Positions 10,440-44,960 of a stretch of DNA of 64,000 bases are shown here, piece by piece. The stretch is from an uncultured Eubacteriales bacterium (GTDB taxonomy: Bacteria; Bacillota; Clostridia; RUG12999), in assembly GCA_964592375.1 (NCBI GenBank), contig CAZQDP010000001.1:12751-76750 (forward strand). The letters run 5' to 3'. The translations under genes were made by a program, and so were the position numbers. Positions within the stretch are counted from its first letter, which is position 1. Each line of letters begins with the position of its first letter. The notes beneath the pieces were generated by a model. That model was given only the letters and a program-made list of their open reading frames with translations. It was not told the DNA's origin and did not search any database.

Positions 10440-10562
10440 GAAAGAGGGCTTTCCAAAATGCATTGAATGATTATCCCATTTTGGGTGAATATTTTAAGTC
10501 TGCATGCATATATTGTTGTGTAATAGACTACAATCATTCGTGCTACTTGCACGGTAAAAGGA

Positions 10563-22575: not shown

Positions 22576-22586
22576 CGGAGGCACAC

Positions 22587-24779: not shown

Positions 24780-26717
24780 ATGGGACTTAGCTTAGCTCAA
24801 AAAATCATTCAGGAGCATTTGGTTAGCGGTTCTTTGGCATGCGGTAGCGAGATTGCCATTCGTATTGACCAAACGCTCACACAGGACTCCACGGGAACAA
24901 TGGCATATCTTGAATTTGAAGCAATTGGATTACCTAGAGTGAAAACAAAGAAATCCGTTGCCTACATAGACCACAATACGCTGCAAGCAGGTTTTGAAAA
25001 TGCGGATGATCATCAATATATTCAAACCGTTGCTGCAAAGCATGGCATTTATTTTTCAAAGCCGGGCAACGGCATTTGCCATCAGGTACAACTGGAACGT
25101 TTTGGTGTTCCGGGCATGACCCTTCTGGGATCGGATAGCCATACGCCGACTGGTGGCGGTATTGGCATGCTTGCCATTGGTGCAGGCGGCCTGGATGTTG
25201 CGGTGGCCATGGGCGGCGGTGCATATTATTTGACCATGCCTCAAATTTGCAAAGTAAATTTGAAAGGCAAATTATCACCATGGGTCAGTGCAAAGGATGT
25301 TATTTTAGAGGTCCTGCGCATACTCAGCGTGAAGGGCGGCGTGGGCAAGGTAATTGAATACGGTGGTGAAGGCATTAGAAGCCTTAGTGTGCCCGAAAGA
25401 GCCACCATCACCAATATGGGTGCAGAGCTGGGTGCAACCACTTCAATTTTCCCAAGTGATGAGATGACAAAGCAGTTTATGCGTGCGCAGGGCAGGGAGC
25501 AAGACTGGATAGAACTCTTACCAGATTTGGATGCAAAGTATGATGAAGTGATTGATATTGATTTAGCCGCTTTGGTGCCGATGGCCGCCAAGCCTCACAG
25601 TCCGGACAATGTGGATGCAATTGAAAATATAGGCAAAATCAAAGTAAATCAAGTGGCAATCGGTAGCTGTACCAATTCATCGCTCATGGATATGATGAAG
25701 GTTGCTTCCATTTTAAAAGGAAAAACCGTGCATCCGGAAGTAAGCCTTGTCATTTCCCCAGGCTCGAAGCAGGTACTTACCATGCTGGCTCAAAATGGAG
25801 CACTTTCAGACATGGTAGCCGCCGGAGCGCGTATATTGGAATCTGCCTGCGGCCCTTGTATCGGTATGGGGCAGGCTCCTCAAACGAATGCAGTTTCTCT
25901 TCGTACGTTTAATCGCAATTTTGAAGGACGAAGCGGTACAAAATCGGCAGATGTGTATTTGGTCAGTCCAGAGGTGGCTGCGGTTTCAGCGCTTACTGGT
26001 GTGCTGAGCGACCCCAGAGAATTTGGCCCTGCACCAATCATTGAAATGCCAGGCCAATTCATTTTAAACGACAATATGGTGCTGAGTCCTGCACCGGAGA
26101 ATAATCAAATAGAAGTGATAAGAGGCCCGAACATTAAGCCATTTCCGGTGAATAGCCCCATGGAGAAAACCATGGAAGGCAAAGCACTGCTAAAGGTGGG
26201 GGATAATATCACAACCGACCATATTATGCCCTCCAATGCAAAGCTTTTGCCGTATAGATCCAATATACCGTACTTATCTGAGTATTGCCTTGTGCCTTGC
26301 GATCCGCAGTTTCCGACTCGTGCCAAAGAAAATGGTGGCGGCATCATTATCGGTGGATCCAATTACGGTCAGGGCTCTAGCCGTGAACATGCTGCACTTG
26401 CGCCCCTTTATTTAAAAATCAAAGCGGTGATTGCAAAATCCTTTGCCCGCATTCATATGGCAAACCTAATCAATTCCGGCATACTTCCTCTGGAGTTTGT
26501 AGATGGAAATGATTATGACAAAATTGATGAAATGGATATACTGAGCATTGAAAATGCGCAGCAGCAGCTAAAGGGTGGCGAAATCATTACAGTAAAAAAT
26601 ATGACAAAAGGCATCAGCATACAAACCAAAGCTACTTTGTCTGACCGGCAGCTTCAAATGATGCTTGTCGGTGGGCTTCTCAATTATACAAAGCGCTGCA
26701 GTGAAAACGCCAAATAA
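24780..26717 (+). CDS. Aconitate hydratase (about 645 aa clostridial-type aconitase)
   Basis: It belongs to the aconitase family and has Cys-ligand regions (SCTNSS, CGPCIG) and a swivel domain. It is followed by an isocitrate dehydrogenase gene. Confidence 0.8.
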   Translation: MGLSLAQKIIQEHLVSGSLACGSEIAIRIDQTLTQDSTGTMAYLEFEAIGLPRVKTKKSVAYIDHNTLQAGFENADDHQYIQTVAAKHGIYFSKPGNGICHQVQLERFGVPGMTLLGSDSHTPTGGGIGMLAIGAGGLDVAVAMGGGAYYLTMPQICKVNLKGKLSPWVSAKDVILEVLRILSVKGGVGKVIEYGGEGIRSLSVPERATITNMGAELGATTSIFPSDEMTKQFMRAQGREQDWIELLPDLDAKYDEVIDIDLAALVPMAAKPHSPDNVDAIENIGKIKVNQVAIGSCTNSSLMDMMKVASILKGKTVHPEVSLVISPGSKQVLTMLAQNGALSDMVAAGARILESACGPCIGMGQAPQTNAVSLRTFNRNFEGRSGTKSADVYLVSPEVAAVSALTGVLSDPREFGPAPIIEMPGQFILNDNMVLSPAPENNQIEVIRGPNIKPFPVNSPMEKTMEGKALLKVGDNITTDHIMPSNAKLLPYRSNIPYLSEYCLVPCDPQFPTRAKENGGGIIIGGSNYGQGSSREHAALAPLYLKIKAVIAKSFARIHMANLINSGILPLEFVDGNDYDKIDEMDILSIENAQQQLKGGEIITVKNMTKGISIQTKATLSDRQLQMMLVGGLLNYTKRCSENAK

Positions 26718-26735
26718 AGAAAGGAAGAAAATAAA

Positions 26736-27896
26736 ATGAACGATGCGATTAAAATTGCAACTGAAAAATTCTCGCTTCTTTTGGAGCAACAGCTTATGCG
26801 GGCGGAAAAAATCAAAATGGAGAAGGAATTTCTTGATTATGATAAGTTAGATACATTGATTATCGGGGTGACGGGGGGAGATGGCATTGGCCCTGCTATT
26901 ACCGGTCAGGGGCATCGGGTATTGGAGTTTCTTCTCCAAAATGAAGTGAAGGCCGGAAAGGTTGCTTTTAAGGTAATCGATGGACTTACCATTGAGCGTA
27001 GAGCGGCAGAGAATAAAGCCATCACCGATGATGTGTTAGCGGAGCTTAAAGCGTGTCATGTTATTCTCAAAGGGCCCACAACCACACCTCGCGCAGGCGA
27101 CCCATGGCCGAATATTGAAAGCGCCAATGTTGCGATGAGAAAAGAACTGGATCTGTTTGCCAATGTAAGGCCGGTGAAGGTGCCTGAAAAGGGAATAGAC
27201 TGGACATTTTTCAGAGAAAATACAGAAGGCAGCTATGCACTTGGCAGCAATGGCATACATGTGAATGAAGATGTTGCATTTGATTTTTGCGTAGCCACAA
27301 CGGAAGGCTGCGAGAGAATCGCAAAAGCGGCATTTGAATATGCAAAAAAAGCCGGCAAGAGTAGGGTGACTGCTGTAACCAAAGCAAATGTCGTCAAGAC
27401 CACAGACGGTAAGTTTTTAAATCTTTGCCAGAAGATATCGGCGCAGTATCCGGATATTGCATTTGATGATTGGTATATTGATATTATGACCGCCAAACTG
27501 ATTGATGAAAAAAGAAGAACCGACTTTAAGGTGTTTATTCTACCCAATCTCTACGGTGATATTTTGACGGATGAAGCAGCGGAATTCCAAGGCGGCGTAG
27601 GAACTGCCGGCAGTGCAAACATTGGCAAACGATATGCAATGTTTGAAGCCATTCACGGCTCTGCCCCGAGAATGGTAGACGAAGGAAGAGCGCAGTATGC
27701 AGACCCCTGCAGCGTGCTAAGAGCATGCGTGATGCTACTGGAGCACATCGGGCATGGAGATAAGGCTGCAAAGCTTGAGACGGCACTGGATATGTGCATG
27801 TATACTGAAAAGAAACTTGTTATTACGGGTAGGGATACGGGTGCGACCTGCTCGCAATTTGCCGATTATGTTATGGAAACGGTGCAAAAGCTGTAA
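26736..27896 (+). CDS. Isocitrate dehydrogenase (isocitrate/isopropylmalate dehydrogenase family)
   Basis: It has the family motifs GGDGIGP, NLYGDILTDEAA and GS..P, and is adjacent to the aconitase gene. Confidence 0.75.
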   Translation: MNDAIKIATEKFSLLLEQQLMRAEKIKMEKEFLDYDKLDTLIIGVTGGDGIGPAITGQGHRVLEFLLQNEVKAGKVAFKVIDGLTIERRAAENKAITDDVLAELKACHVILKGPTTTPRAGDPWPNIESANVAMRKELDLFANVRPVKVPEKGIDWTFFRENTEGSYALGSNGIHVNEDVAFDFCVATTEGCERIAKAAFEYAKKAGKSRVTAVTKANVVKTTDGKFLNLCQKISAQYPDIAFDDWYIDIMTAKLIDEKRRTDFKVFILPNLYGDILTDEAAEFQGGVGTAGSANIGKRYAMFEAIHGSAPRMVDEGRAQYADPCSVLRACVMLLEHIGHGDKAAKLETALDMCMYTEKKLVITGRDTGATCSQFADYVMETVQKL

Positions 27897-27932
27897 ACCA
27901 TGTAAGCTTCCATTATGGAAAGGATGGTTGAT

Positions 27933-28589
27933 ATGCCCCAAACCCAGGAAAACTTATCTTTAGGCAATCGGGTATTTGACCGACTGAGAGAACGGATTTT
28001 AGATGGGGAATTAGCTACCGGTCAGGGTCTTATCGAAGCTAAGCTATCGCAGGAATACGGCGTGAGCCGGACTCCTGTACGAGATGCGGTACATCGCTTG
28101 GAGCTCGAAGGATTGGTTAAAATTGTACCAAATAAAGGTGCCATTGTCTGTGGCCTTTCCGACAGGGATATTTTAGACATCTATCAAATTCGTATGAAGT
28201 TAGAAGCAATGGCGGCTTGCCTTGCTGCCCAAAACATCAACGAAGAAGCACTTATGCAGCTAAAGGAAAGCGTAGAGCTTTTGGAGTTTTATATCATCAA
28301 AGGAAATAGTGTGGGACTTGGCCTTTGTGATAGTAAGTTCCACAGAATCATATATGAAGCTTCCAAAAGCCGTCCGCTGGCGAGTACACTTAAAAATTTG
28401 CACAGCTATAGCAGACGAGCCGGGAAGGAATCCTTTCGAATAGAAGGCAGACCGGAAAAGGTTCTCACAGAGCATCGGCTGATTTATGAAGCCATTGAAA
28501 AAAGGGATCAGGAAAAAGCCCAGCAACTTGCTCAGGTGCACATTGAAAATGCCTTGGCAAGCTATAGCCGTCAGCTTGACATGAGATAG
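27933..28589 (+). CDS. GntR family transcriptional regulator with an FCD ligand-binding domain
   Basis: It has an N-terminal wHTH (SQEYGVSRTPVRDAVHRLELEGLV) and a C-terminal FCD-like helical domain. Confidence 0.8.
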   Translation: MPQTQENLSLGNRVFDRLRERILDGELATGQGLIEAKLSQEYGVSRTPVRDAVHRLELEGLVKIVPNKGAIVCGLSDRDILDIYQIRMKLEAMAACLAAQNINEEALMQLKESVELLEFYIIKGNSVGLGLCDSKFHRIIYEASKSRPLASTLKNLHSYSRRAGKESFRIEGRPEKVLTEHRLIYEAIEKRDQEKAQQLAQVHIENALASYSRQLDMR

Positions 28590-28637
28590 CATAACTTTGC
28601 GGATGCAACGATTATGGGTACAGAACGGAGGCTTTTT

Positions 28638-29285
28638 ATGGCTACACTTGGCAACAAAAAGGTTTCGGCTGTTGTGATTAGAAGATTACCTCGCTATTAC
28701 AGATATTTGGGGGAGCTTCTATCCAATAAGATTACAAGAATTTCATCGGCAGAGCTGAGCCGGAGAATGGGCGTTACTGCATCTCAAATTCGGCAGGACC
28801 TCAACTGTTTTGGGGGATTTGGTCAGCAGGGATATGGATATAATGTTGAAAACCTGTATATGCAAATGGGTAAAATTTTGGGTCTTTCGAAGAAACGCAA
28901 AATGATCATCGTCGGTGCAGGTAATTTGGGTCATGCCATTGCAAACTACGCCAATTTTGAAAAGCGTGGGTTTGCGCTCTGTGGTATCTTTGATAACGAT
29001 AAAAAGAAAACGCAAGGGGAAATTGCAGGCATGCAAATTCAGCATATCAAAGCGTTAGAGGCTTTTATCAAAGAGATGTCTGTGGATATTGCCGTGCTAT
29101 GTGTGCCGAAGCTATATGCACAAGGTATGGCAGAGAGGCTGGCAAGAGCCGGCATTAAAGGAATATGGAACTTTTCCTACACGGAGTTATTACCGCCACA
29201 GGGAGTGGTGGTGGAAACCGTACACCTGAGCGACAGTCTGATGACGCTGTCATGCAGAATAAATCAGGAGACGAATGAAACATGA
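28638..29285 (+). CDS. rex: Redox-sensing transcriptional repressor Rex
   Basis: It has the RLPRYYRYL wHTH motif and a Rossmann NADH-binding region (IVGAGNLG). Confidence 0.85.
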   Translation: MATLGNKKVSAVVIRRLPRYYRYLGELLSNKITRISSAELSRRMGVTASQIRQDLNCFGGFGQQGYGYNVENLYMQMGKILGLSKKRKMIIVGAGNLGHAIANYANFEKRGFALCGIFDNDKKKTQGEIAGMQIQHIKALEAFIKEMSVDIAVLCVPKLYAQGMAERLARAGIKGIWNFSYTELLPPQGVVVETVHLSDSLMTLSCRINQETNET

Positions 29286-30079
29286 AGGTATTTGGTTTTG
29301 TAGGTGATAGTGGTACCGGAAAAAGCTATCGTGCCATGTGGGTAGCCAAGGAGAAAGGGCTTCCTTGCATGATTGATGATGGTCTGCTGATTATGGGAGG
29401 CCGAATTGTTGCGGGCAAATCCGCCAAGAGAGAAAAAACCATGTTTGCATCGGTAAGGCGCGCCATTTTCGAAGATCCGGCACATATCGCAGAGGTAAGC
29501 ACGAAAATAAAAATTTTAGCTCCCGATGGCATTTTAATTTTAGGCACTTCAAAACGAATGGTAGAAAGAATTGCCGCCAGGCTATCCCTGCCTGAAATCA
29601 CAGAATATGTGATGATAGAGGATGTGGCTTCAAAAGACGAAATCCAAAAGGCACAGGATATGCGCATGAAGCAGGGGAAACATATTATTCCCGTTCCGGC
29701 CTTTGAAGTGAAAAAGGACTTTTCGGGATATTTCATCGATCCGCTACGGATTTTCTTTCATGGCAAAGAAAAATATAGTGCGGAAAAAACCATTGTTCGC
29801 CCAACCTATAGCTATTTGGGTGATTATACACTCTCCAGAAGTGCAACAGCATCCATTTGCCGGCATGAAGGGAATAAAGTTTCGGGCATTCATGTGGTGA
29901 GTGTCAAGGTTCAGCATACGCCAATTGGGGCACATATTGAAATTGACGTTACAATGGAAATGGGGTGCGATATTCGCAAGGCAGCATACAAGGTTCAAAA
30001 TAATGTAGCGGCTGCTTTAGAGGAATATGCGGCACTTGTGGTGTCTAAAATTGACATTAAGGTGATGTCATTAAAATGA
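29282..30079 (+). CDS. Fusion of an HprK-C-like P-loop domain with an Asp23/Gls24-family domain
   Basis: The N-terminal VGDSGTGKSY...CMIDDG resembles the HPr kinase C-terminal Walker A (GDSGVGKSE...ADD). The C-terminal roughly 110 aa (VSGIHVVSVKV...IEIDVTMEMGCDIRKAAYKVQNNV...) fits the Asp23/DUF322 pattern. Confidence 0.55.
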   Translation: MKVFGFVGDSGTGKSYRAMWVAKEKGLPCMIDDGLLIMGGRIVAGKSAKREKTMFASVRRAIFEDPAHIAEVSTKIKILAPDGILILGTSKRMVERIAARLSLPEITEYVMIEDVASKDEIQKAQDMRMKQGKHIIPVPAFEVKKDFSGYFIDPLRIFFHGKEKYSAEKTIVRPTYSYLGDYTLSRSATASICRHEGNKVSGIHVVSVKVQHTPIGAHIEIDVTMEMGCDIRKAAYKVQNNVAAALEEYAALVVSKIDIKVMSLK

Positions 30080-30794: not shown

Positions 30795-30925
30795 AGTCTT
30801 ATTTTGCAGATGATATTTGGATATGCTAAAATTGTCGTAAAATGCTCCGTAAGCCAAAAAAATCGTTGACATTGCAGATGGGCTGTTATATAATAATATC
30901 ATATTTTACAAAGAGGTTACAAAAA

Positions 30926-31717
30926 ATGAACATTTCATTTATCGGTAACGGAAATATGGCAGGTGCCATCATTGGCGGTCTTCTAAAGATGGGGAGTTTT
31001 GAGGCATCAGATATTGCAATAAGCGATGTGAGCGGGCAACGCCGCCAAGATGCTTCGCAAAAGGGCTTTCGCGTTTTTTCCTCAAATTTTGAGGCTGCAT
31101 CTGCCTCAGACATCATTGTGCTTGCGGTAAAACCTATCGTCATGGCAAAGGCATTAGAAGATATTTGCACATGCGAAGGAAAGCTTGTCATTTCAATTGC
31201 GGCAGGCATTTCAAGTGATTTTATCAGGCAGAGGCTCCATCCTTCCTGTCGCATTGTGAGGGTAATGCCAAATACTCCCGCGCTCTATGGTGAGGGCATG
31301 AGCATGATTTGTGAGGATGCAAATGCTTCTAGTGATGATATGCTGATTGTGAAAACGATTTTTGAAAGTGTAGGCAAGGTAGATTTTCTGCCCGAAAAGC
31401 TCATTGACGCTGCAATGGCAGTCGGAAGCTCGGGCCCGGCTTACATTTTTATGATTATTGAAGCCTTGGCAGACGGTGGGGTGCTTTGCTCCTTACCCAG
31501 AGATAAAGCATATGCTATCGCCGCCCAGACCGTGCTTGGTTCTGCAAAAATGGTGTTGGAAAGCGGCATGCATCCGGGTCAGCTAAAGGACATGGTATGC
31601 TCCCCGGGAGGGACTACCATTGAAGCGATGGCAGTGCTTGAAAAGCGGGGCGTTCGTGGCGCAATCATGGAAGCGGTGAAAGCATGTGCCGATAAAGCAG
31701 GCAGACTTGCAAAATAA
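30926..31717 (+). CDS. proC: Pyrroline-5-carboxylate reductase
   Basis: It has the NAD(P)-binding N-terminus FIGNGNMAGAIIGGL and a C-terminal P5CR dimerization region. The start is at 30926 after a TTGACA-17-TATAAT promoter at 30865..30893. Confidence 0.85.
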   Translation: MNISFIGNGNMAGAIIGGLLKMGSFEASDIAISDVSGQRRQDASQKGFRVFSSNFEAASASDIIVLAVKPIVMAKALEDICTCEGKLVISIAAGISSDFIRQRLHPSCRIVRVMPNTPALYGEGMSMICEDANASSDDMLIVKTIFESVGKVDFLPEKLIDAAMAVGSSGPAYIFMIIEALADGGVLCSLPRDKAYAIAAQTVLGSAKMVLESGMHPGQLKDMVCSPGGTTIEAMAVLEKRGVRGAIMEAVKACADKAGRLAK

Positions 31718-31875
31718 CTTGTACATTTATTTATGAATAATGGCATAAATGCATCCACTATCGCAATATAATTTAGTATCATCCTTCTGCATGTCCGGCA
31801 TGGCAACGCCGAAGCATCTGGATGAAAATGATATTGCGGTAAGGGAAACCCCCGCACAGAGTTTTGGGGGAGCAT

Positions 31876-32472
31876 ATGCGAAATAATAAGATAAAACGGC
31901 ATATTGGCAGTAATTTTCGGCTGTATTTTCTTTTTTCATGCATATTGGTACTGGGAGTTGTCATTGGTGGTATTATCGCTAATTTGGTACCGCAGGAAAC
32001 CTGTAAAAAGTCAGCAGAATCATTAGGCCTAGCCATTTCAAATCTTTCTAAAGGCACAGCGCAGTGGACTGTGATTTATTTTTTTACATCATCCTCCAAA
32101 CCGGTATTATCGATGTGGCTTGCCGGATTTTGGCGATATGGTATATGGATTATCATGGCAACACTTTGTTATAAAGGTGCGGCAATGGGGTTTTCGGTGG
32201 CACTTTTCGTTCGAATGTACCAAATGCGCGGAGTGGCACTATCCGCGGTGGGAATACTACCGCAACATATCATTTTGCTGCCGTTATATGTCATCGTTGC
32301 TGTACTAAGTATAGATATAGGTCGCGGCATGGTCACTTCTCGAAGCTACAAAATGTTACCGACATATATTGCAATATTGATTGCTTCAGTGGCACTTTGC
32401 GTGGCAGCTACCGCCATTGATACCTATATTTCTTCTTGGCTCATCGGCAGCCTTGCATATATGATTGAATGA
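31876..32472 (+). CDS. spoIIM: Stage II sporulation protein M
   Basis: Multi-TM protein that aligns with B. subtilis SpoIIM (FRLYFLFSCILVLGVVIGG; LPQHIILLPLYVIV; ATAIDTYISS). It lies next to a xerD-like gene, as in Bacillus (ripX-fur-spoIIM). Confidence 0.8.
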   Translation: MRNNKIKRHIGSNFRLYFLFSCILVLGVVIGGIIANLVPQETCKKSAESLGLAISNLSKGTAQWTVIYFFTSSSKPVLSMWLAGFWRYGIWIIMATLCYKGAAMGFSVALFVRMYQMRGVALSAVGILPQHIILLPLYVIVAVLSIDIGRGMVTSRSYKMLPTYIAILIASVALCVAATAIDTYISSWLIGSLAYMIE

Positions 32473-32490
32473 AAGAGAGGGTAATTAACC

Positions 32491-33267
32491 ATGGCAGCTT
32501 TGGAATTATATTCAAATTATCTTGAGTCTGAAACAAAGGTTTCAGCAAATACATATCAATCATATATGAGAGACATTCGAATTTTCGGTGATTATCTGCA
32601 TGAAACGAATGGCCGGCGCAATTATGAAGGTGTGAAAAAGCAAACCCTATGCATTTACATAGACCATTTAGAAAAGCAGGGAAAAGCCAAGTCCTCCATT
32701 TACAGAGCCATGGCATCGCTACGAAGCTTTTATAAGTATTTGCTTTATGCAGGGCTGGTTGATGTAAACCCTGCCATGGAGATAGATTCCCCCAAGGTGG
32801 ACAGAAAGGCAATGCGCGAGCCGCTGACCTCGCACGAGACGCAAACTTTGCTACAACAGCCCGTTTGCAGTGATTACAAGGGGTATCGAGATAAAGCAAT
32901 GATGGAACTGCTGTGCTCAACGGGAATTAAAATCAGTGAACTCATTGCCCTTGATGTGGAGGATGTTGTCATTGACGATGGCTATATTTTGTGCAATGTA
33001 GGCGGCAAAAAGAATAAAGTCAGCATTGGTCCTATGGCACTTTTTGCACTGAAAAATTATTTAAGCAGTGCCAGATTTTCTTTTCTATTTGAGGATTGTA
33101 CTTGCAAGGCATTGTTTTTAAACACCAGCGGAAATCGCTTGACTCGGCAAGGGCTATGGAAAATCATTAAAACCTATACACTAAAAGCAAATATCGCAAA
33201 AGAAATATCGCCCCATTCACTAAAAAAGGTATCCGGCAACCAAAAAGCTACCGCAGGAATATATTAA
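32491..33267 (+). CDS. XerD-like tyrosine recombinase paralog, probably catalytically degenerate
   Basis: It has an N-terminal SAM-like core-binding domain. Box I reads TGIKISEL (Arg replaced by Lys), the HxxR box is replaced by HSLKK, and the C-terminus ends at ...ATAGIY without the HxxR...LGH...Y segment. Confidence 0.65.
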   Translation: MAALELYSNYLESETKVSANTYQSYMRDIRIFGDYLHETNGRRNYEGVKKQTLCIYIDHLEKQGKAKSSIYRAMASLRSFYKYLLYAGLVDVNPAMEIDSPKVDRKAMREPLTSHETQTLLQQPVCSDYKGYRDKAMMELLCSTGIKISELIALDVEDVVIDDGYILCNVGGKKNKVSIGPMALFALKNYLSSARFSFLFEDCTCKALFLNTSGNRLTRQGLWKIIKTYTLKANIAKEISPHSLKKVSGNQKATAGIY

Positions 33268-33304
33268 TCTTTTAAAAAGGGTAGCTTTGCAGCTACCCTT
33301 TTCG

Positions 33305-34087
33305 CTATTCAGTGGCTTTTTTCAGCGCATAAACAAACTTTGAAAGCTCCTCGGTAGCTTCTTTGCCGTAATCTTCAATGATTTTAACGATGGCACTGCC
33401 TACAATTATGCCGTCAGCATATTTAATAAGCCCTTCTACCTGCTGTGCGGTGGATATACCAAATCCTACTGCAGTGGGGCAAGTGGCATATTTCTGAATT
33501 TGTTCAAAGAAATGTCTGAAATCAGTATGGAAACTGCTTCGAACACCGGTTACGCCAAGGGAGGACACGCAGTATAGAAATCCTTTGCTATGGCTAGCGA
33601 TTTTTTCAATGCGAGACCCGGAGGTGGGTGCCACCAGATTGATGATGTGGACATCACCGGAAAATGCCTCAAATTCCCCTCTCTCTTCAAATGGCAAATC
33701 GGGTATAATCACGCCATCAATTCCCACTTCTTTGCAACGCGTAAAAAATAAATTGGAACCAAATTTATATACGGAATTTGCGTACATCATCAGTAGTAGG
33801 GGAAGCTCACATTTTTTTCGCAATCGTCTTACCATTTCAAAAATCATGTCTAAATGCACACCGTTTTTCAGAGCACGTTCACTGGCTCTTGAGATAATAG
33901 GGCCCTCTGCCACTGGGTCTGAAAAAGGCACACCAATTTCAATGATATCAGCACCGCTTTTTTCCATGGCCAATATGAATTCCTCCGTGGCATAGATATC
34001 GGGATCTCCGGCGGTAACAAAGGTAATTAAAGCTTTCTTCCCATGCGCTTTTAATTTCTCGAAAGTATTATCAATCCTATTCATCAA
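33305..34087 (-). CDS. trpA: Tryptophan synthase alpha chain
   Basis: It has the TrpA motifs [15 protein letters not shown] and GFGIS; 260 aa. Confidence 0.9.
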
Positions 34088-35261
34088 TCATTTCCCCCCT
34101 GTATTTCGCAATACTTTGTACATCCTTATCACCACGACCGGAAAGGCATATGACTAAAATACTGTCCTTTGGCATGGTAGGAGCGATCTTCATCGCCGCG
34201 GCTACTGCATGTGCGCTTTCAATTGCAGGGATAATCCCTTCGCTCTGCGTGAGAAACTCAAAAGCACATACGGCCTCTTCATCTGTAATGGCTGTATATT
34301 CTGCTCGGCCACTATGGTGCAGATAGGCGTGTTCCGGTCCTATACCGGGATAGTCAAGTCCGGCAGAAATGGAATGCACTTTATCAATCTGGCCATGTTC
34401 ATTTTGTAAAAATACAGATTTCATACCGTGAAAAATGCCATTACTCCCACGGGTAAGGGTTGCGGCGTGCATTTTTGTATCAACGCCGTGGCCTGCGGCC
34501 TCAGCACCAATTAAGGTAACGCTGGGATCATCAATAAAGTCATAAAACATGCCCATCGCATTGCTACCACCGCCGACGCAAGCCACCACACAGCTTGGTA
34601 GTTTTCCTTCCTTTTCAAAAAGCTGTGTTTTCGTTTCTATGCCGATAATCTTTTGAAAATCACGCACCATGGTGGGGTACGGGTGAGGGCCCATAACAGA
34701 ACCAAAAAGATAAAAGGTGTCTTCCACATGCATTGTCCAATATCGCATTGCCTCATTGACTGCATCCTTCAGCGTACCGGTACCGGAAGAGGCTTCGGTA
34801 ACACGTGCGCCAAGCATTTTCATTCGATACACATTTAGAGCCTGACGAGAAATATCTTCTGTGCCCATAAAGATCTCGCAGTCCATGCCAAAGAGTGCGG
34901 CTGCGGTGGCGGTGGCAACGCCATGCTGGCCTGCACCTGTTTCTGCAACAATTCGCTTTTTATTCAGTCGCTTTGCAAGCAAAGCCTGCCCTAACACATT
35001 ATTGATTTTATGCGAGCCGGTATGGTTTAAATCTTCTCGTTTAAGATAAATTTTAGCTCCGCTAAGTTTTTTTGTCATATTTCGGGCTTCATACAGCAAG
35101 GATGGTCTGCCGGCATAGTTTGCATATAAATCATACAGCTCACGCTGAAAATCTTTATCATCCTTCATGGCATAATATACCGATTCAATTTCTTCAAGAG
35201 CACTCATCAAGGTTTCAGGTACGTATTGACCGCCAAACTGTCCAAATCTACCGTTTTTCAT
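34077..35261 (-). CDS. trpB: Tryptophan synthase beta chain
   Basis: It has the PLP-lysine region HTGSHKINN and GGGSNAMG. Confidence 0.95.
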
Positions 35262-35889
35262 TTTCCTTCCTCCTTATTGCATCAATGAATTCTTTTATTT
35301 TTGCAGGGTCTTTTTTACCACCCGTCTCCACACCGCTACTCACATCAATGCCATAGGGAACCGCCGTGCATATGGCTGATTGAACATTGTGGATATGAAG
35401 CCCACCGGCCAAAATGATGGGTTTTTCAATCATACTCACCGCTCTTTTAGCAAGTGACCAATTTGCGAGCTTTCCGCTACCGCCATAGGACCCCGGACTA
35501 TCGGCATCAATCAGTAACTTATCGGCAAGCGTGGCACCCGCCAAAAGCTGTGTTTCGTTCACGGGTCGTATTGCTTTCCAAACTTCAATATGAGGGATAT
35601 GGTCTTTGAGATTTTTGATGAAAGCTTCATCTTCATCGCCATGCAACTGCAAAACATCAAGAGAGGCGTGGTGTGCACAGGAAGCAATAAAAGAAAGATC
35701 GGAATTAACGAACACACCAACGGATAAAATTCGCCTATCAAGCTGATCCCTTAGCTTGGCAGCCTGCACAATAGAAACCTGACGAGTGCTTTTCGCAAAG
35801 ACAAAACCAATGTAGTCTGGCATGCATGCATTAACTGTACAAATATCTTCTTTTCTTGAAAGGCCGCATATTTTAATTTTTGTCATGCC
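35248..35889 (-). CDS. trpF: Phosphoribosylanthranilate isomerase
   Basis: The internal start MTKIKICGL is typical of TrpF; the ORF is open further upstream and overlaps trpC. Confidence 0.75.
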
Positions 35890-36692
35890 TTGCTCCTTAA
35901 ACTGCGCATTGTGCTTGCAATATCGCCGCTTCGCATGAGTGCCTCGCCAATGAGCACACCATGGACACCGCAGTTTTTTAAAAACAATATATCCTCTGCG
36001 GTAGAAATACCGCTCTCGGAGATGATTACACAATCTTTGGGAACAAAACCTGCCAATTCTTCGGTCGTATGCAAATCAACATGAAAGGTGTTTAAATTGC
36101 GATTATTGATACCGATAATTCTTGCACCAATTCTGATTGCTTTTTCAAGCTCTGTGATATGATGCGTTTCAACCAAGGCATGCAGTCCTAAAGTATGGGC
36201 AGTGCAGAGTAGGTCCGCCATTTCTTCCTCGCTGAGCATGGCAGCTATCAGTAGAACTGCGTCTGCACCAAGCACTCTGGATTCATAGAGCTGATAGGAA
36301 TCAAATATAAAGTCTTTTCGCAATATGGGAAGCTGTACCATGCTTCGGATGGCTTTTAAATACTCGCTACTGCCGCCAAAATACGTTTCCTCCGTTAAAA
36401 CGGAAATGGCATTCGCACCAGCTACTTCATATGCTTTGGCGATGGCCACCGGGTCGAAATTTTTGCAAATGAGTCCCTTGGAAGGGGAGGCCTTTTTCAC
36501 CTCGGCGATGATGGATGGAAAGCGACTTGCAAGTGCCGACGCAAAGTCTAGCACCGGGCGCTTTTCTTCCAAAGCCTCTGCAATCATGGTTTTTGGACTT
36601 TTCATGGATTTTTCTCTTGCAAGCTGTTCTTTTCTGCTACATAAAATCTTATCTAAAATCATGGCAAACCGGTACCTCCTTTTAAGCAACAT
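35883..36692 (-). CDS. trpC: Indole-3-glycerol phosphate synthase
   Basis: It has the IAEVKKASPSKG motif and an IGINNRNL region. Confidence 0.85.
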   Translation of the reverse strand: MLLKRRYRFAMILDKILCSRKEQLAREKSMKSPKTMIAEALEEKRPVLDFASALASRFPSIIAEVKKASPSKGLICKNFDPVAIAKAYEVAGANAISVLTEETYFGGSSEYLKAIRSMVQLPILRKDFIFDSYQLYESRVLGADAVLLIAAMLSEEEMADLLCTAHTLGLHALVETHHITELEKAIRIGARIIGINNRNLNTFHVDLHTTEELAGFVPKDCVIISESGISTAEDILFLKNCGVHGVLIGEALMRSGDIASTMRSLRSKA

Positions 36693-36695
36693 ACA

Positions 36696-38333
36696 TTATG
36701 AATAGGAATGGGTCAACTGCCTTAAGCAAATTAGCTTTTCCATGGCGGCCCCGCTGTCTATGGACTGGGCGGCGGCACGTATGCCATCTTCCAGTGTTGG
36801 CACAAGACCGTATGCAAGGAGTGCGGCGGCGGCATTGAGAAGTGCAATGTCTCGCTTGGGGCCTTTTTCTCCCTGCAATATGGATAAGGTAATTTGTGCG
36901 TTCTCCTGCGCACTTCCTCCCACCAGATCTACACTTTTTGCAAGGGGTAGTCCCAACTGCTCGGGGGAGATATGGTATTTTGTTATGATACCGTTTGCAA
37001 CTTGTGCAACGGCGGTTTTGGCCACCGTTGATATTTCATCCAGGCCGTCCTCGCCATGTACCACCATGGCGCTTTTTACGCCTAAATTGACCAGTACATT
37101 GGCCATCATTTCAAGCAAATGTATATCGTACACACCCAGTAGCATGCTCTCGGCTGAAGCCGGATTAGACAGAGGCCCCAATATATTAAATACACTGCGA
37201 ATGCCGATTTCTCTGCGCGGCGTTGCGGCATACTTCATGGATTTGTGAAAAACTGGCGCAAACATAAAGCAAAGCCCCACCGATTGAAGACACATGGAGG
37301 CCTGGTCGGGAGAAATATCAATCTTCACGCTGAGTGCCTCTAGCACATCCGCACTGCCACTTCTGCCGGAAGCCGATCGATTGCCGTGCTTGGCGACTTG
37401 TGCGCCAGCGCCCGCGGCAATAAAGGCTGCAGTGGTGGATATATTAAAGGTGTTTGCCATATCTCCGCCCGTTCCAACAATATCAATCACCGGCTCGCTA
37501 TGTGATACGCAAGCCGCTTTTTCCCGCATAACCATGGCAAAACCTGTAATCTCATCCACCGTTTCGCCTTTCATGCGCAGTGCCGTTAAAAGCGCGCCAA
37601 TTTGTGCTTCACTCGCCTCTCCATCCATCATGCATTTCATGGCGGATTTGGCCTCGCCTATGCTTAAATGTTCATTATTTGTTATTTTGCGAATGTATTG
37701 CTTGAGCACATCCCGCTGGGAAGGCGCTTCGCTCACCGATAATTGCGTAGTAGGGGTTAGTCCCGCAATGTGGCAAATGAAATTCTTTATGATCCGTTTG
37801 CCATAGCCTGTTAAAATCGACTCCGGGTGAAACTGCACGCCGTAAACATGCATTTGGCGATGGCGCAGGGCCATCATCTCACCATTTGGCGCAAGACCGA
37901 TTACCTCAAGGCATGGGGGAGTGGAGGCTTCCTCCACTTTTAAAGAATGGTATCTGCCAACAAGGATTTTATCCGGTAAACCCTCAAAGAGAGGGCAAGT
38001 GGTGTTAATCGTAATTTCTGATTGCTTGCCGTGAATTGGCTCCATAGCATGAACGATCTTTCCGCCAAATGCTTCTCCGATAGCCTGATGACCAAGACAG
38101 ACTCCCAAAATTGGCACTACTCCTGCAAAGGTTTTTATCACATCAATGCAGATGCCTGCATGAGAAGGGGTGCCGGGTCCGGGTGAGATGATGATTGCTT
38201 TTGGAGAAAGCTCGCGGATTTGTTCTAAGGTGATTTCATCATTTCTTTTTACCACAATATCACGATACAGCTCGCCTGCATATTGATACAAATTATAAGT
38301 AAAGGAATCGTAGTTGTCTATCATGAGTATCAT
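36696..38333 (-). CDS. Bifunctional anthranilate synthase component II (glutamine amidotransferase) / anthranilate phosphoribosyltransferase, a TrpG-TrpD fusion
   Basis: The N-terminal 190 aa are a class I GATase (MILMIDNYDSFTYNL, GVCLGHQ, HPES). The C-terminal half is TrpD (IDIVGTGGDMANTFNIST). Confidence 0.85.
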   Translation of the reverse strand: MILMIDNYDSFTYNLYQYAGELYRDIVVKRNDEITLEQIRELSPKAIIISPGPGTPSHAGICIDVIKTFAGVVPILGVCLGHQAIGEAFGGKIVHAMEPIHGKQSEITINTTCPLFEGLPDKILVGRYHSLKVEEASTPPCLEVIGLAPNGEMMALRHRQMHVYGVQFHPESILTGYGKRIIKNFICHIAGLTPTTQLSVSEAPSQRDVLKQYIRKITNNEHLSIGEAKSAMKCMMDGEASEAQIGALLTALRMKGETVDEITGFAMVMREKAACVSHSEPVIDIVGTGGDMANTFNISTTAAFIAAGAGAQVAKHGNRSASGRSGSADVLEALSVKIDISPDQASMCLQSVGLCFMFAPVFHKSMKYAATPRREIGIRSVFNILGPLSNPASAESMLLGVYDIHLLEMMANVLVNLGVKSAMVVHGEDGLDEISTVAKTAVAQVANGIITKYHISPEQLGLPLAKSVDLVGGSAQENAQITLSILQGEKGPKRDIALLNAAAALLAYGLVPTLEDGIRAAAQSIDSGAAMEKLICLRQLTHSYS

Positions 38334-39802
38334 AAAATTTCACCTGCTTCCATTAAAGCCTTTATCATGGCTTTGGACTTTTGTTCTGTTTCCATAAACT
38401 CTTTTTCAGGCACCGAATCATACACAATGCCCGCTCCGGCCTGAATATATGCCTTTGCATTTCTGTATAAAATGGTGCGAATGGCAATGCAGGTATCCAT
38501 ATCACCGTCAAAGGCCAGGTAACCTACTGTGCCTCCATATAAACCTCGCTTTGTGGTTTCCATTTCATCAATGATTTCCATGGCACGCACTTTTGGGGCG
38601 CCTGATAGTGTGCCGGCAGGTAGGAGGGACTTTAAGGTATCAATGCAATCCTTATCCTGTGCCAGCGTGCCGGAAACATCACTGACCAAATGCATAAGCT
38701 GAGAGTATCGTTCCACTCTCATAAAATCAGTGACGCTCACACTGCCAAACTCACATACCTTCCCAACATCATTTCTGCCAAGGTCCACCAGCATGGTATG
38801 CTCGGCACGTTCTTTTTCATCTGTCATCAATTCAATTTCAAGCAGTTTATCCTCTTTTTCATTTTTGCCTCTACGTATCGTGCCGGCAATCGGCCTTGTT
38901 TGGACCAAGCCGCTTTCAATACTGACAAGCTTTTCAGGAGAAGCACCGCAAATGTGATAGTCCTTAAATTTAAAATAATACATGTAGGGCGAGGGGTTGG
39001 AAACCCGAAGGACACGATAGGTATCAAAGGAATCGGGAGGATTGGCGGCCTCGAAGCGCTGAGAGAGCACAACCTGAAAAATTTCACCGTCGGAAATGCA
39101 CTGCTTTGCCGCTACCACACCATCCATAAACTGCTGCTTCGATATATTGGAGGTTACCGCTAAGCTTACTTCTTTCTTTTCCTTATCGTCCTTCACTGCC
39201 GCCATGCGTACGATGGAAGCAATTTTTTTTGCAGTTTCCACTCCGTTATCATAATTTTTCCGAAAATCTCCCTTGGCAGGAACATTGACAATAATCACGA
39301 TTTTTTGACGCAAATGGTCAAAGGCAATCACCTCATCGCAGACCAAAAAATGGCAATCCGGCATCTGCAGATCATCTACAGGAGGTTTTTTTAGTGACTT
39401 TTCTACGTAGCGCACACAGTCATAGGAAAAATACCCTACAAGTCCACCACAAAAATTTGGGATATTTTCGATTTTAGGGCTTTTATATTCGGCAAGAATT
39501 TCTCTTACCGCCTCAAAAGGATCAGCGTTTTTTGTTTGTACGTCGCCGTTTTTATGCTTTATTGTTACCACATAATCCTTTGCGGAAATTTCCATTAGCG
39601 GATTGTAACCAATAAAAGAATATCGTCCCCATCTATCTGCATCATTTACACTTTCAAGCAAGAAACAGCATTTTGACCTATGCCTAAGTTTTAGAAACAG
39701 ATTAATGGGTGTTTGGGTATCGGCATAAAGTTCATAAGCTACGGGAATAATATCGTACTGAGTTGAAAGTGCCAAAGCCTCTTCGAATTGTGGATAAAAC
39801 AT
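38330..39802 (-). CDS. trpE: Anthranilate synthase component I
   Basis: It has the chorismate-binding domain motifs ...GAPK... and GAGIVYDS; 490 aa. Confidence 0.9.
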   Translation of the reverse strand: MFYPQFEEALALSTQYDIIPVAYELYADTQTPINLFLKLRHRSKCCFLLESVNDADRWGRYSFIGYNPLMEISAKDYVVTIKHKNGDVQTKNADPFEAVREILAEYKSPKIENIPNFCGGLVGYFSYDCVRYVEKSLKKPPVDDLQMPDCHFLVCDEVIAFDHLRQKIVIIVNVPAKGDFRKNYDNGVETAKKIASIVRMAAVKDDKEKKEVSLAVTSNISKQQFMDGVVAAKQCISDGEIFQVVLSQRFEAANPPDSFDTYRVLRVSNPSPYMYYFKFKDYHICGASPEKLVSIESGLVQTRPIAGTIRRGKNEKEDKLLEIELMTDEKERAEHTMLVDLGRNDVGKVCEFGSVSVTDFMRVERYSQLMHLVSDVSGTLAQDKDCIDTLKSLLPAGTLSGAPKVRAMEIIDEMETTKRGLYGGTVGYLAFDGDMDTCIAIRTILYRNAKAYIQAGAGIVYDSVPEKEFMETEQKSKAMIKALMEAGEIL

Positions 39803-40178
39803 TTTTTATTCGCTCCTTTCATTGTTAAGCTTCATTTTTTATATAAAAAAAGAGCTTTATCGCTTGGGACGATAAAACTCGTGGTGCCACCCAAATTTAG
39901 GAAAGCAGAATATACTTTCCCCTTTATACAGGTACGCAGGTATGGAAAACTCTCATAGCAGAGGTACGCAGTTTGGAGATTTCCTCACATCAATACCCTT
40001 TCCCATTTACGCAGGGATAAACGGCACAGGATACTCGGTATATACCTTTCCCCTTGCTCCTCACGGATCCATTCACATAAACTTCATGTGCCGACCTTAC
40101 ACCAACGCCAGCTCGCTGAGACATTTCGGGTCTATGCTACTCACTTCCGCTCTTCGGATTTCTTTGCAATATTCATTT
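39803..40178 (-). promoter_or_regulatory. T-box riboswitch leader of the trp operon
   Basis: On the minus strand: a -35 TTGACA (+ strand 40208..40213) and -10 TATAAT (40185..40190) separated by 17 nt. The conserved T-box sequence AAATTTGGGTGGCACCACGAG lies at + 39876..39898. It is followed by an 11-bp-stem terminator hairpin (+ 39852..39880) and a U-tract (+ 39845..39851), immediately upstream of trpE. Confidence 0.7.
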
Positions 40179-44841: not shown

Positions 44842-44917
44842 GGCCCTATCGTCTAGTGGTTAGGACACCGCCCTCTCACGGCGGCAACAGGGGTTCGAGT
44901 CCCCTTAGGGTCACCAA
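44842..44917 (+). tRNA. tRNA-Glu (anticodon CUC)
   Basis: It folds into a cloverleaf by hand: a 7-bp acceptor stem with one G-U pair, a D arm, an anticodon stem CCGCC/GGCGG with loop CUCUCAC, a T arm GGTTCGAGTCC and an encoded CCA. Confidence 0.85.
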
Positions 44918-44920
44918 AAA

Positions 44921-44960
44921 GACCACCATCTATTGATAAAAATAGATGGTGGTTTTTGTT
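44921..44960 (+). terminator. Rho-independent terminator after the tRNA
   Basis: The hairpin GACCACCATCTATT...AATAGATGGTGGT is followed by TTTTTGTTTG. Confidence 0.7.

What the first reader, a model, noticed from the sequence alone, without database searches (positions are those of the whole stretch)
32491..33267. XerD-like recombinase next to spoIIM with both catalytic arginines replaced by lysine and a truncated C-terminus
The gene has a normal N-terminal SAM-like domain and the conserved catalytic lysine (GGKKNKVSI). Box I reads TGIKISEL instead of TGxRxSEL. The HxxR box reads HSLKK. The protein ends at ...ATAGIY, shortly after a possible Tyr, and lacks the LGH...TxxYTH region.

The stop is genuine. 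A bidirectional terminator hairpin follows, and one-base frameshifts do not restore a XerD C-terminus. The position next to spoIIM mirrors the ripX(xerD)-fur-spoIIM synteny of Bacillus. This may therefore be a degenerate XerD ortholog, either a pseudo-recombinase or an enzyme with altered chemistry, and not a typical dif resolvase.
Basis: partly seen in the sequence, partly recalled or inferred. Interest (0 to 1): 0.55.

Follow-up and report, generated by a model that had tools for sequence, protein, structure and literature searches.

The report
Truncated, catalytically dead XerD remnant
The gene at the usual chromosomal XerD position in this Clostridia-like genome has lost the end of the protein that carries the cutting tyrosine and has an eroded active site, so it cannot be a working recombinase; it is either a leftover DNA-binding protein or a dying gene, similar to the known degenerate "XerD" of streptococci.

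Summary
ORF 32491-33267 (258 aa) is the positional ortholog of XerD (proC-spoIIM-xerD synteny). It has Lys at Arg-I (K147). It has Lys at the Arg-II column (K245). It stops 13 residues later and lacks His-II, the Tyr helix and the C-terminal helix. No frameshift restores a C-terminus, and a strong bidirectional terminator follows.

New findings:
- The truncated form is a singleton. It appears once among 5.8 billion proteins, and the next hit is 50% identical and full length.
- K245 sits exactly where homology ends, at an A-run that repeats a terminator motif. It may be a junction by-product, not a point substitution.
- K147 is shared with the closest relatives (P0003, P0122). Both are full-length XerDs, so this change predates the truncation.
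- 9 of 44 otherwise invariant catalytic-domain positions have changed, against 0 of 10 in the N-terminal domain. Overall divergence is only modestly raised and the reading frame is intact.

Best reading: this is the end state of lineage-wide erosion of XerD catalysis. It is now either a non-catalytic DNA-binding protein or a young pseudogene. Altered chemistry is very unlikely. The closest precedent is streptococcal XerD-like YnbA. Interest is moderate to low.

The parts
30842..31717 (+). proC (pyrroline-5-carboxylate reductase), first gene of the conserved proC-spoIIM-xerD block
   Evidence: Pfam P5CR_dimer and F420_oxidored. The same order is seen in L002, L004 and L020.
31864..32472 (+). 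spoIIM, immediately upstream. Its stop codon TGA (32470-32472) lies 18 nt before the xerD-like start codon.
   Evidence: PF01944 at 58.9 bits; TIGR02831 at 82.6 bits, below its cutoff of 100.2.
32475..32481 (+). Shine-Dalgarno-like GAGAGGG, 9 nt upstream of the ATG
   Evidence: Read directly from the sequence.
32491..33267 (+). xerD-like ORF, 258 aa, stop codon included
32500..32745 (+). N-terminal SAM-like core-binding domain (aa 4-85). It is intact: 0 of 10 invariant columns are changed.
   Evidence: PF02899 at 60.3 bits; domain test; pLDDT about 88-95.
32824..33225 (+). Retained part of the catalytic domain (aa 112-245). 9 of 44 invariant columns are changed: Y142C, A143S, V148I, R175N, P178S, F222L, T240S, T243S, R245K.
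   Evidence: PF00589 profile positions 3-134 of 172.
32929..32931 (+). K147 codon (AAA) at the Arg-I column (TGIKISEL)
   Evidence: Shared only with P0003 and P0122 among 236 XerDs.
33007..33009 (+). K173 codon, the conserved catalytic Lys of the beta-hairpin, retained
   Evidence: Alignment to 1a0p.
33214..33225 (+). H242-S-L-K245 (HxxR box read as HSLK). This is the last segment with XerD homology; every tblastn alignment ends at 33225.
33226..33264 (+). 13-codon tail KVSGNQKATAGIY of uncertain origin. It overlaps a weak minus-strand hairpin with a T-run (33253-33224). It also shares the motifs TAAAAA(A/G)GGTA and AGCTACC with the terminator.
   Evidence: pLDDT below 50. Its resemblance to ISSTQ(I/V)Y is in the top 0.1-0.2% of random tails.
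33275..33302 (.). Bidirectional intrinsic terminator shared with the convergent trpA gene
   Evidence: Perfect 12-nt inverted repeat with a 4-nt loop; -17.2 kcal/mol, z = -5.3.
33305..34087 (-). trpA, last gene of a convergent T-box-controlled trp operon (33305-39802). It occupies the place where relatives carry other genes downstream of xerD.
   Evidence: PF00290; T-box at 39862-40163; relatives' contexts.

Best explanation
This is the chromosomal XerD ortholog of a deep-branching, spore-forming Clostridia-type organism, and it has become a non-catalytic protein.

Shown:
- It sits at the conserved proC-spoIIM-xerD position.
- It keeps an intact N-terminal core-binding domain and the catalytic-domain scaffold up to the HxxR box.
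- It has Lys at Arg-I.
- It has lost everything after the HxxR box: His-II, the Tyr helix and the C-terminal helix.
- It has replaced several otherwise invariant residues around the active site.

Inferred:
- Erosion of catalysis began before the truncation. The nearest relatives carry Lys at Arg-I (one also has Asn at His-I) in full-length proteins.
- The erosion proceeded while the reading frame stayed under selection.
- A later 3' rearrangement or deletion joined the gene, at or just after the HxxR box, to the terminator region of a convergent trp operon.

Proposed mechanism (inferred, not shown):
- The product is made from the spoIIM-xerD transcript.
- It can still bind XerD-type half-sites as a DNA clamp but cannot cleave or exchange strands.
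- It would therefore act only architecturally. One example would be the catalysis-independent SMC-ScpAB unloading role described for B. subtilis XerD.
- Chromosome dimer resolution would be left to another recombinase encoded outside this window.
For: Orthology:
- XerD is the best NCBIfam family, and the best solved structure by sequence and by fold is 1a0p/5dcf.
- The proC-spoIIM-xerD order matches L002, L004 and L020.

Dead active site:
- K147 and K245 fall in columns where 118/119 and 119/119 homologs have Arg.
- There is no His-II or Tyr region, and no rescue in other frames.
- Y142C, R175N and P178S are private departures from columns that are invariant even in proteobacterial and Omnitrophota homologs.

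Erosion is domain-specific:
- 9 of 44 invariant catalytic-domain columns are changed, against 0 of 10 N-domain columns.

Erosion predates the truncation:
- Lys at Arg-I occurs in only 3 of 236 XerDs: the window protein, P0003 and P0122.
- These are its nearest relatives and share its synteny.
- Both relatives are full length. P0122 also has His-I changed to Asn. The exact P0122 protein is encoded on contigs from two JGI metagenomes.

The frame has been maintained:
- ProC (50-51%) and SpoIIM (30-33%) are equidistant among the window, L002 and L020.
- XerD(1-245) is 44.5-48.6% identical to the window, against 52.5% between the two relatives. This is only a modest acceleration.
- Whole-gene neutral drift long enough to change 9 of 44 invariant sites leaves 245 codons stop-free in only 7% of simulations, before counting indels.

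Expression signals and fold:
- A ribosome-binding site and operon position are present, and a strong terminator follows the stop codon.
- The retained part is predicted to fold confidently (mean pLDDT 83.8).

Plausible role:
- ScpA and ScpB are encoded in the window.
- XerD is a site-specific SMC unloader at XDS sites in B. subtilis (Karaboja 2021, as cited in PMC10945525, PMC11840125 and PMC12322038).

Precedent:
- The streptococcal XerD/YnbA lacks the extreme C-terminus and two residues of the catalytic tetrad, and takes no part in dif recombination (PMC1914069).
Against: - The truncated form is seen in a single contig and nowhere else among 5.8 billion proteins. There is therefore no comparative evidence that the truncated protein itself is maintained.
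- The deletion removes not just the Tyr but about four C-terminal helices, including the helix that begins at the HxxR box. From established knowledge of the tyrosine-recombinase fold, that helix is buried in the catalytic domain. The remnant may therefore be unstable, and AlphaFold confidence does not measure stability.
- The tail is predicted to be disordered and looks like recycled terminator sequence.
- The stop-free probability under neutrality (0.07 from substitutions alone; 0.24 if only 5 sites are counted) is not decisive.
- The excess of conservative replacements is not significant (P about 0.15).
- Grouping of the window protein with the Lys-at-Arg-I clade has only 49-79% NJ bootstrap support.
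- No XDS or dif-like site was found in the window.
- The rest of the genome could not be examined.
- That SMC unloading does not need XerD's catalytic residue is recalled from the abstract of Karaboja et al. 2021. The paper was not available here.
Confidence: 0.45

Rival explanations
1. It is a plain pseudogene. A deletion or rearrangement that brought the trp operon's 3' end next to xerD cut off the last ~50 codons. The remaining ORF is a non-functional relic that has not yet picked up stop codons or frameshifts. The active-site erosion happened earlier, in a full-length but already catalysis-relaxed XerD, or partly afterwards by drift.
For: - It is a singleton with no close relative carrying the same form.
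- Homology ends abruptly at 33225, and a 13-residue tail follows that is unstructured and terminator-like.
- The genes that follow xerD in a relative (L004) — M50 peptidase, scpA, scpB — and a dac carboxypeptidase (also after xerD in L001) lie 21-25 kb upstream here. This shows that the locus has been rearranged.
- The loss removes core helices of the catalytic domain (established fold knowledge; the alignment shows what is missing).
- The score falls well below the XerD family cutoff.
- A stop-free frame is not very improbable if the truncation is recent (0.07-0.24).
Against: - There is no internal stop or frameshift in 245 codons, despite 9 changes at invariant positions.
- The N-domain invariant positions are untouched.
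- Overall divergence is only slightly above that of the orthologs.
- The start codon, ribosome-binding site and terminator are all intact.
Confidence: 0.4
2. The truncation is an assembly artefact. The contig would be a chimeric join between xerD and the trpA terminator region, and the real genome would carry a full-length xerD that still has Lys at Arg-I.
For: - The source is a single un-named NCBI contig of 99.8 kb that is absent from the GTDB representatives. It may therefore come from a metagenome bin.
- The break is sharp and the tail has no homology.
- Short repeated motifs (TAAAAA(A/G)GGTA, AGCTACC) flank the junction and could mislead an assembler.
Against: - The repeats are only 7-11 nt long, far shorter than assembler k-mers.
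- The erosion of invariant residues upstream of the junction cannot be an assembly effect.
- The ORF runs into a clean stop codon followed by a shared terminator.
Confidence: 0.08
3. It is an active recombinase or topoisomerase-like enzyme with altered chemistry. It would use Lys in place of both Arg residues and the C-terminal Tyr258 as the nucleophile, after an internal ~24-residue deletion.
For: - The tail VSGNQ...IY resembles the ISSTQ(I/V)Y nucleophile motif more than 99.8% of random tails do. MAFFT aligns the two.
- The Cre Arg-I-to-Lys mutant is active in vivo, and the Arg-II-to-Lys mutant is moderately active (PMC2943603).
- The catalytic Lys173, His242 and Glu150 are retained.
Against: - The tail test is post hoc. 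The tail is predicted to be disordered.
- His-II and the helices that position the Tyr would be absent even under this model.
- Y142C, R175N and P178S hit invariant positions.
- Single Lys mutants are already severely impaired in vitro, and an Arg-I-to-Lys integrase (R225K) appears among Tn1549 integrase-DNA crystal structures.
- The tail also shares motifs with the terminator, which suggests a non-coding origin.
Confidence: 0.03

Closest known systems
Canonical XerD (E. coli XerD, PDB 1a0p; B. subtilis RipX; NCBIfam TIGR02225)
   Same: - It is the best-scoring family, and the best solved structure by both sequence and fold.
- It has the same two-domain layout through the HxxR box.
- It keeps the catalytic Lys, His-I and the Glu of the SEL motif.
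- It has the same chromosomal position next to spoIIM as in other Clostridia.
   Different: - Lys replaces Arg-I, and Lys sits at the Arg-II column.
- There is no His-II, no nucleophile helix and no C-terminal helix. By established knowledge, that C-terminal region mediates partner contacts.
- It scores 199.8 bits against a cutoff of 329.6 and covers only model positions 2-240 of 290.
- Nine invariant catalytic-domain residues are changed.
Streptococcal/lactococcal 'XerD-like' protein YnbA (NCBIfam NF002685 / PRK02436)
   Same: [quoted passage not shown] It shows no recombination at dif-SL (PMC1914069). It has the same kind of degeneration and a similar size (about 245 aa model).
   Different: - The window protein is not a member of that family: 20.6 bits against a cutoff of 178.
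- YnbA is conserved across a whole genus group and, per that paper, is closer to phage integrases. The window protein is a singleton clearly derived from the clostridial XerD at its native locus.
- It is cut further back, right at the HxxR box.
Full-length XerDs with Lys at Arg-I in the sister lineage (P0003 from Logan runs SRR24319157/59; P0122 from JGI 3300027796/3300004151)
   Same: - Same proC-spoIIM-xerD locus.
- Same Arg-I-to-Lys change.
- Nearest relatives in the trees.
- They also score just below the XerD equivalog cutoff, at 307-318 bits.
   Different: They keep Arg-II, His-II, the Tyr and the whole C-terminus, and match all 44 invariant catalytic-domain columns. P0122 alone has His-I changed to Asn.
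Engineered Arg-to-Lys tyrosine-recombinase mutants (Cre R173K and R292K; Tn1549 Int R225K)
   Same: The same substitutions at the same catalytic positions. They give a benchmark for what Lys does: R173K is inactive in vitro, defective in synapsis and weakly active in vivo; R292K is moderately active and accumulates the covalent intermediate (PMC2943603).
   Different: These are full-length single mutants that still have the Tyr. Here the nucleophile region is absent.
Catalysis-independent role of XerD as an SMC-ScpAB unloader at XDS sites (B. subtilis; Karaboja et al. 2021)
   Same: It offers a documented non-recombination job for XerD in Firmicutes. ScpA and ScpB are encoded in this window.
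   Different: It is a purely functional analogy and is untested here. No XDS-like site is present in the window. That the role does not need the catalytic residue is recalled from memory, not read here.

Membership tests
XerD (NCBIfam TIGR02225 equivalog) | Whole-protein score at or above the curated cutoff (329.6 bits), with end-to-end coverage of the model | tested here: not met
   199.8 bits, covering model positions 2-240 of 290.
XerD (NCBIfam TIGR02225 equivalog) | Complete catalytic set: Arg-I, Lys, His-I, Arg-II, His-II, Tyr | tested here: not met
   Arg-I is replaced by K147. The Lys is kept (K173). His-I is kept (H242). The Arg-II column holds K245. The His-II and Tyr region is absent.
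XerD (NCBIfam TIGR02225 equivalog) | Orthologous chromosomal position (downstream of spoIIM in Firmicutes) | tested here: met
   proC-spoIIM-xerD order as in L002, L004 and L020; spoIIM-xerD in L001.
XerD (NCBIfam TIGR02225 equivalog) | Recombination at dif together with XerC, activated by FtsK | not testable with these tools
   No dif-like site and no second recombinase in the 64 kb window. The rest of the genome could not be reached.
Tyrosine recombinase superfamily (Pfam PF00589 and PF02899) | Domain matches above the gathering score | tested here: met
   PF00589 at 68.9 bits (cutoff 27.1), but only profile positions 3-134 of 172. PF02899 at 60.3 bits.
Tyrosine recombinase superfamily (Pfam PF00589 and PF02899) | Nucleophilic tyrosine on the penultimate helix | tested here: inconclusive
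   The only candidate is the terminal Y258. The tail's resemblance to the motif has p of about 0.001-0.002 post hoc. The tail is disordered and terminator-like.
Streptococcal XerD-like / YnbA (NCBIfam NF002685) | Score at or above the family cutoff (178 bits) | tested here: not met
   20.6 bits, E = 3.3e-4.
Streptococcal XerD-like / YnbA (NCBIfam NF002685) | Lacks the extreme C-terminus and two residues of the catalytic tetrad (PMC1914069) | tested here: met
   The C-terminal ~50 residues are missing. Arg-I and Arg-II are not Arg, and the Tyr region is absent. This is a resemblance, not membership.
Streptococcal XerD-like / YnbA (NCBIfam NF002685) | Conserved across a clade | tested here: not met
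   The truncated form is seen once. All 235 other homologs inspected are full length, except for one that ends early within XerD sequence (P0038, 272 aa; contig-end cut presumed, not checked).
Pseudogene | Truncated relative to its orthologs | tested here: met
   258 aa against about 294 aa. Homology stops at residue 245.
Pseudogene | Internal stop codons, frameshifts, or lost start signals | tested here: not met
   A single open frame with an ATG and a ribosome-binding site.
Pseudogene | Neutral evolution (dN/dS about 1) or no expression | not testable with these tools
   No relative is close enough for dN/dS (the nearest is 50% identical). No expression data are available.

The most novel reading that the evidence does not exclude
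A small, deep-branching Clostridia lineage (the window organism together with the organisms carrying P0003, P0121 and P0122) has released XerD from its catalytic duty. It keeps XerD as a sequence-specific, non-catalytic DNA-binding factor, for example an SMC-ScpAB unloader or an architectural partner. The three states seen would then form a series: Lys at Arg-I only; Lys at Arg-I plus Asn at His-I; and finally a truncated protein with no Tyr. This would be a natural separation of XerD's two functions. It would imply that chromosome dimers are resolved by a different recombinase in these organisms.
Probability: 0.2. Interest if true: 0.65.

Novelty: new variant of a known kind. Interest (0 to 1): 0.35.

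Why it matters
If the remnant, or its full-length Lys-at-Arg-I relatives, is functional, it would be a second and independent natural case of a chromosomal XerD retained without catalysis, after the streptococcal YnbA. This one would be caught close to its canonical ancestor and still at the ancestral locus. That would give a natural separation-of-function allele for asking what XerD does apart from cutting dif, such as SMC unloading at the terminus or architectural support of a partner recombinase. It would also predict an alternative dimer-resolution system in this lineage. If it is only a pseudogene, the practical point is about annotation. The ORF should not be labelled 'tyrosine recombinase XerD', and the genome either resolves dimers with another enzyme or the assembly is wrong at this junction.

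Tried and rejected
- Frameshift or readthrough rescue. tblastn with full-length XerDs and with their last 60 residues found nothing in any frame near the gene. Rejected.
- A second Xer gene or a dif site in the window. No other tyrosine recombinase was found. There was no match to a Firmicutes-type dif pattern or to the XerD-arm pattern. The window is probably not at the terminus.
- Recovering the source genome. The exact-protein contig lookup found no record. The cluster lookup gave no name or accession. Whether the genome has an intact XerC, XerS or XerH could therefore not be tested.
- Origin of the 13-residue tail. Two models were tested and neither could be rejected:
  - An internal ~24-residue deletion that leaves a relic of the Tyr motif (top 0.1-0.2% of random tails, post hoc).
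  - A tail recruited from terminator-like non-coding DNA (direct repeats of 11 and 7 nt shared with the terminator, and a weak minus-strand hairpin with z = -2.7).
- Excess of conservative substitutions at invariant sites, as a sign of continuing selection. Not significant (7 of 9 observed against about 55% expected; P about 0.15).
- Gross acceleration of the whole protein. Rejected: identity to orthologs is only about 4-8 points below what the equidistant neighbours ProC and SpoIIM predict.
- Membership of the streptococcal XerD-like family. Rejected on score.
- The Karaboja et al. 2021 paper could not be read. Only citing papers were used.
- An early count of '45 departures' included alignment gaps and columns specific to one over-represented clade. 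It was replaced by the diverse-set tests.
Full report
**1. What is there**

The ORF 32491-33267 (+) encodes 258 residues from an ATG. A GAGAGGG ribosome-binding site lies 9 nt upstream, and the spoIIM stop codon lies 18 nt before the ATG.

Pfam finds an N-terminal SAM-like domain (aa 4-85). It also finds a Phage_integrase domain at aa 112-246, which matches only profile positions 3-134 of 172. XerD (TIGR02225) is the best NCBIfam family. The score is 199.8 bits against a cutoff of 329.6, and the match stops at model position 240 of 290.

Alignment to E. coli XerD (1a0p) shows the following:
- K147 lies under Arg-I (STGIKISEL / ATGLRVSEL).
- K173 lies under the catalytic Lys.
- H242 lies under His-I.
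- K245 lies under Arg-II (PHSLKK / PHVLRH).

The same columns hold Arg in 118/119 and 119/119 retrieved homologs. After K245 come 13 residues (KVSGNQKATAGIY) and a stop codon. The upstream gene is SpoIIM.

A perfect 12-nt inverted repeat at 33275-33302 (-17.2 kcal/mol, z = -5.3) serves as a terminator on both strands. The convergent trpA gene ends at 33305. No XerD C-terminal coding sequence exists in any frame nearby.

**2. It is the positional XerD ortholog, and the truncated form is a singleton**

The exact protein occurs once among 5.8 billion proteins, on one un-named NCBI contig of 99.8 kb. The next best hits are only 50% identical, and all are full-length XerDs of about 294 aa. The genome is not among the GTDB species representatives.

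In the nearest relatives the order proC-spoIIM-xerD is the same as in the window (L002, L004, L020). Downstream genes differ between relatives. In a relative (L004), M50 peptidase, scpA and scpB follow xerD, as does a dac carboxypeptidase (also in L001). In this window those genes lie 21-25 kb upstream. Here a T-box-controlled trp operon, trpE-GD-C-F-B-A, runs head-on into the xerD-like gene. The locus has therefore been rearranged on its 3' side.

**3. Where homology ends**

All alignments stop at 33225, the K245 codon. From 33221 the sequence TAAAAAAGGTA...AGCTACC repeats two motifs of the terminator 50 nt downstream (TAAAAAGGGTA...AGCTACC). On the minus strand this region forms a weak hairpin followed by a T-run (z = -2.7). 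The A-run that encodes K245-K246 is the complement of that T-run. K245 may therefore come from the junction and not from an Arg-to-Lys point change.

There is an alternative. MAFFT aligns VSGNQ...IY with the nucleophile motif ISSTQ(I/V)Y. A position-specific score puts this resemblance in the top 0.1-0.2% of random tails (post hoc). That would fit an internal ~24-residue deletion. I could not decide between the two models.

Under either model, His-II and the helices that carry and position the Tyr are missing. AlphaFold also predicts residues 245-258 to be unstructured (pLDDT below 50), while the rest folds confidently (mean pLDDT 83.8). The model matches XerD structures.

**4. The active site had been eroding before the truncation**

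I aligned the protein with 17 diverse XerD/XerC sequences, including proteobacterial and Omnitrophota outliers. The window protein alone departs from otherwise invariant columns at Y142C, R175N, P178S and R245K.

Against 13 Firmicutes XerDs from several orders, 9 of 44 invariant catalytic-domain columns are changed, but 0 of 10 invariant N-domain columns.

Lys at Arg-I is found in only 3 of 236 XerDs examined: the window protein, P0003 and P0122. These are its nearest relatives:
- In the first NJ tree P0003 is its sister, with 79% bootstrap support.
- In the second tree the topology is (window,(P0122,(P0121,P0003))). The three relatives group with 89% support, and adding the window protein has 49% support.
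- P0003 and P0122 occupy the same proC-spoIIM-xerD locus.

P0003 and P0122 are complete proteins with Arg-II, His-II and the Tyr. P0122 also has Asn at His-I, and the exact P0122 protein is encoded on contigs from two JGI metagenomes. P0121 has Arg at Arg-I. All three score just below the XerD equivalog cutoff (307-327 bits against 329.6).

K147 is therefore a trait of this small lineage and not part of the private decay of this gene.

**5. Is the remnant maintained?**

ProC (50-51% identity) and SpoIIM (30-33%) are equidistant among the window, L002 and L020. XerD(1-245) is 52.5% identical between L002 and L020, but 44.5-48.6% identical to the window. That is a modest lineage-specific acceleration and is far from free decay.

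I simulated neutral drift of the whole gene until 9 of 44 sites had changed. The 245 codons stayed stop-free in 7% of runs (24% if only 5 sites are required). Any realistic indel rate would lower this further. This favours selection on the reading frame during the erosion, but it is not decisive. An excess of conservative substitutions was not significant.

On the other side, the truncation removes about four helices of the catalytic domain. There is also no comparative support for the truncated form itself.

**6. Mechanism**

Tyrosine recombinases cannot work without the Tyr nucleophile. In Cre, no substitution of the Tyr is active. The Arg-I-to-Lys mutant is inactive in vitro and defective in synapsis, although weakly active in vivo. 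The Arg-II-to-Lys mutant is moderately active (PMC2943603). With the Tyr region, His-II and the C-terminal helix all gone, catalysis is excluded for practical purposes.

What remains is the two-lobed DNA clamp up to the HxxR box. The most likely non-catalytic roles are architectural. XerD is a sequence-specific unloader of SMC-ScpAB at XDS sites near the terminus in B. subtilis (Karaboja 2021, cited). From memory of that abstract, this role does not need the catalytic residue, XerC or dif. ScpA and ScpB are encoded in this window.

My probabilities are:
- Expressed non-catalytic XerD derivative: 0.45.
- Non-functional relic: 0.40.
- Assembly chimera at the junction: 0.08.
- Altered-chemistry enzyme: 0.03.

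**7. Comparison with known systems**

The closest precedent is the streptococcal/lactococcal 'XerD' (YnbA). It lacks the extreme C-terminus and two residues of the catalytic tetrad. It does not act at dif-SL, where XerS alone does the job (PMC1914069). The window protein resembles it in kind but is not a member of that family (NF002685: 20.6 bits against a cutoff of 178). It is an independent and much more recent derivative of the canonical clostridial XerD.

It also fails the XerD equivalog test on score, on coverage and on catalytic residues, while meeting the synteny criterion.

**8. Verdict**

It is an independent variant of a known kind, the degenerate XerD-like protein. It is known from one contig only and has a substantial chance of being a pseudogene. 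The more interesting point is lineage-level: a small clade in which Arg-I of XerD is Lys in otherwise complete proteins.

Interest is 0.35. The most novel reading not excluded by the evidence is a lineage that keeps XerD only for a non-catalytic job. I give that a probability of about 0.2 and an interest of about 0.65 if true.

Noticed in passing
L002 1838-2722 (P0003); L020/L021 10001-10882 (P0122): Full-length XerDs at the same proC-spoIIM-xerD locus carry Lys at catalytic Arg-I (ATGLKVSEL, ATGIKVSEI). P0122 also has Asn at His-I (TPNTLRH). Only these two and the window protein, out of 236 XerDs inspected, have Lys at Arg-I. The related P0121 has Arg. All score just under the XerD equivalog cutoff.
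   Followed up: partly
window 39862-40163 (-): A T-box leader (RF00230, 100.4 bits) lies upstream of trpE. It heads a trpE / fused trpG-trpD (36696-38333) / trpC / trpF / trpB / trpA operon that converges on the xerD-like gene.
   Followed up: partly
window 7414-11714 (+): M50 peptidase, scpA (8078-8818), scpB (8787-9335) and a D-Ala-D-Ala carboxypeptidase (10563-11714) lie 21-25 kb upstream of the xerD-like gene. In a relative (L004) these genes lie downstream of xerD (the carboxypeptidase also in L001). This indicates a rearrangement of the conserved neighbourhood.
   Followed up: partly
window 29282-30079 (+): A 265-aa ORF has a P-loop-like N-terminus (GDSGTGKS) joined to a C-terminal Asp23-family segment. 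It sits between a Rex-like repressor (28614-29285) and a metallophosphoesterase. The combination is unusual and its function is unknown.
   Followed up: no
window 44842-45786 (+): A tRNA gene (44842-44913) is followed by a HepT-like ribonuclease toxin ORF (45298-45786). A partner antitoxin was not looked for.
   Followed up: no
window 33173-33186 and 33212-33225: A 14-nt direct repeat (CCTATACACTAAAA / CCCATTCACTAAAA, 86% identical, 39 nt apart) lies inside the xerD-like gene, and its second copy ends exactly at the homology boundary. It could be chance, or it could be a microhomology involved in the rearrangement.
   Followed up: no
L020 about 11010-11090: In the relative that carries P0122, the sequence just downstream of xerD looks like a tRNA gene (GGGTGTAGCGCAGTTTGGTAGCG...). 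This is a different downstream context from the window and from L002 and L004. It was not checked with the tRNA finder.
   Followed up: no
window 24780-28589 (+): Aconitase, an isocitrate/isopropylmalate dehydrogenase and a GntR/FCD regulator form a cluster downstream of recG (22563-24638). This is ordinary metabolic context.
   Followed up: no
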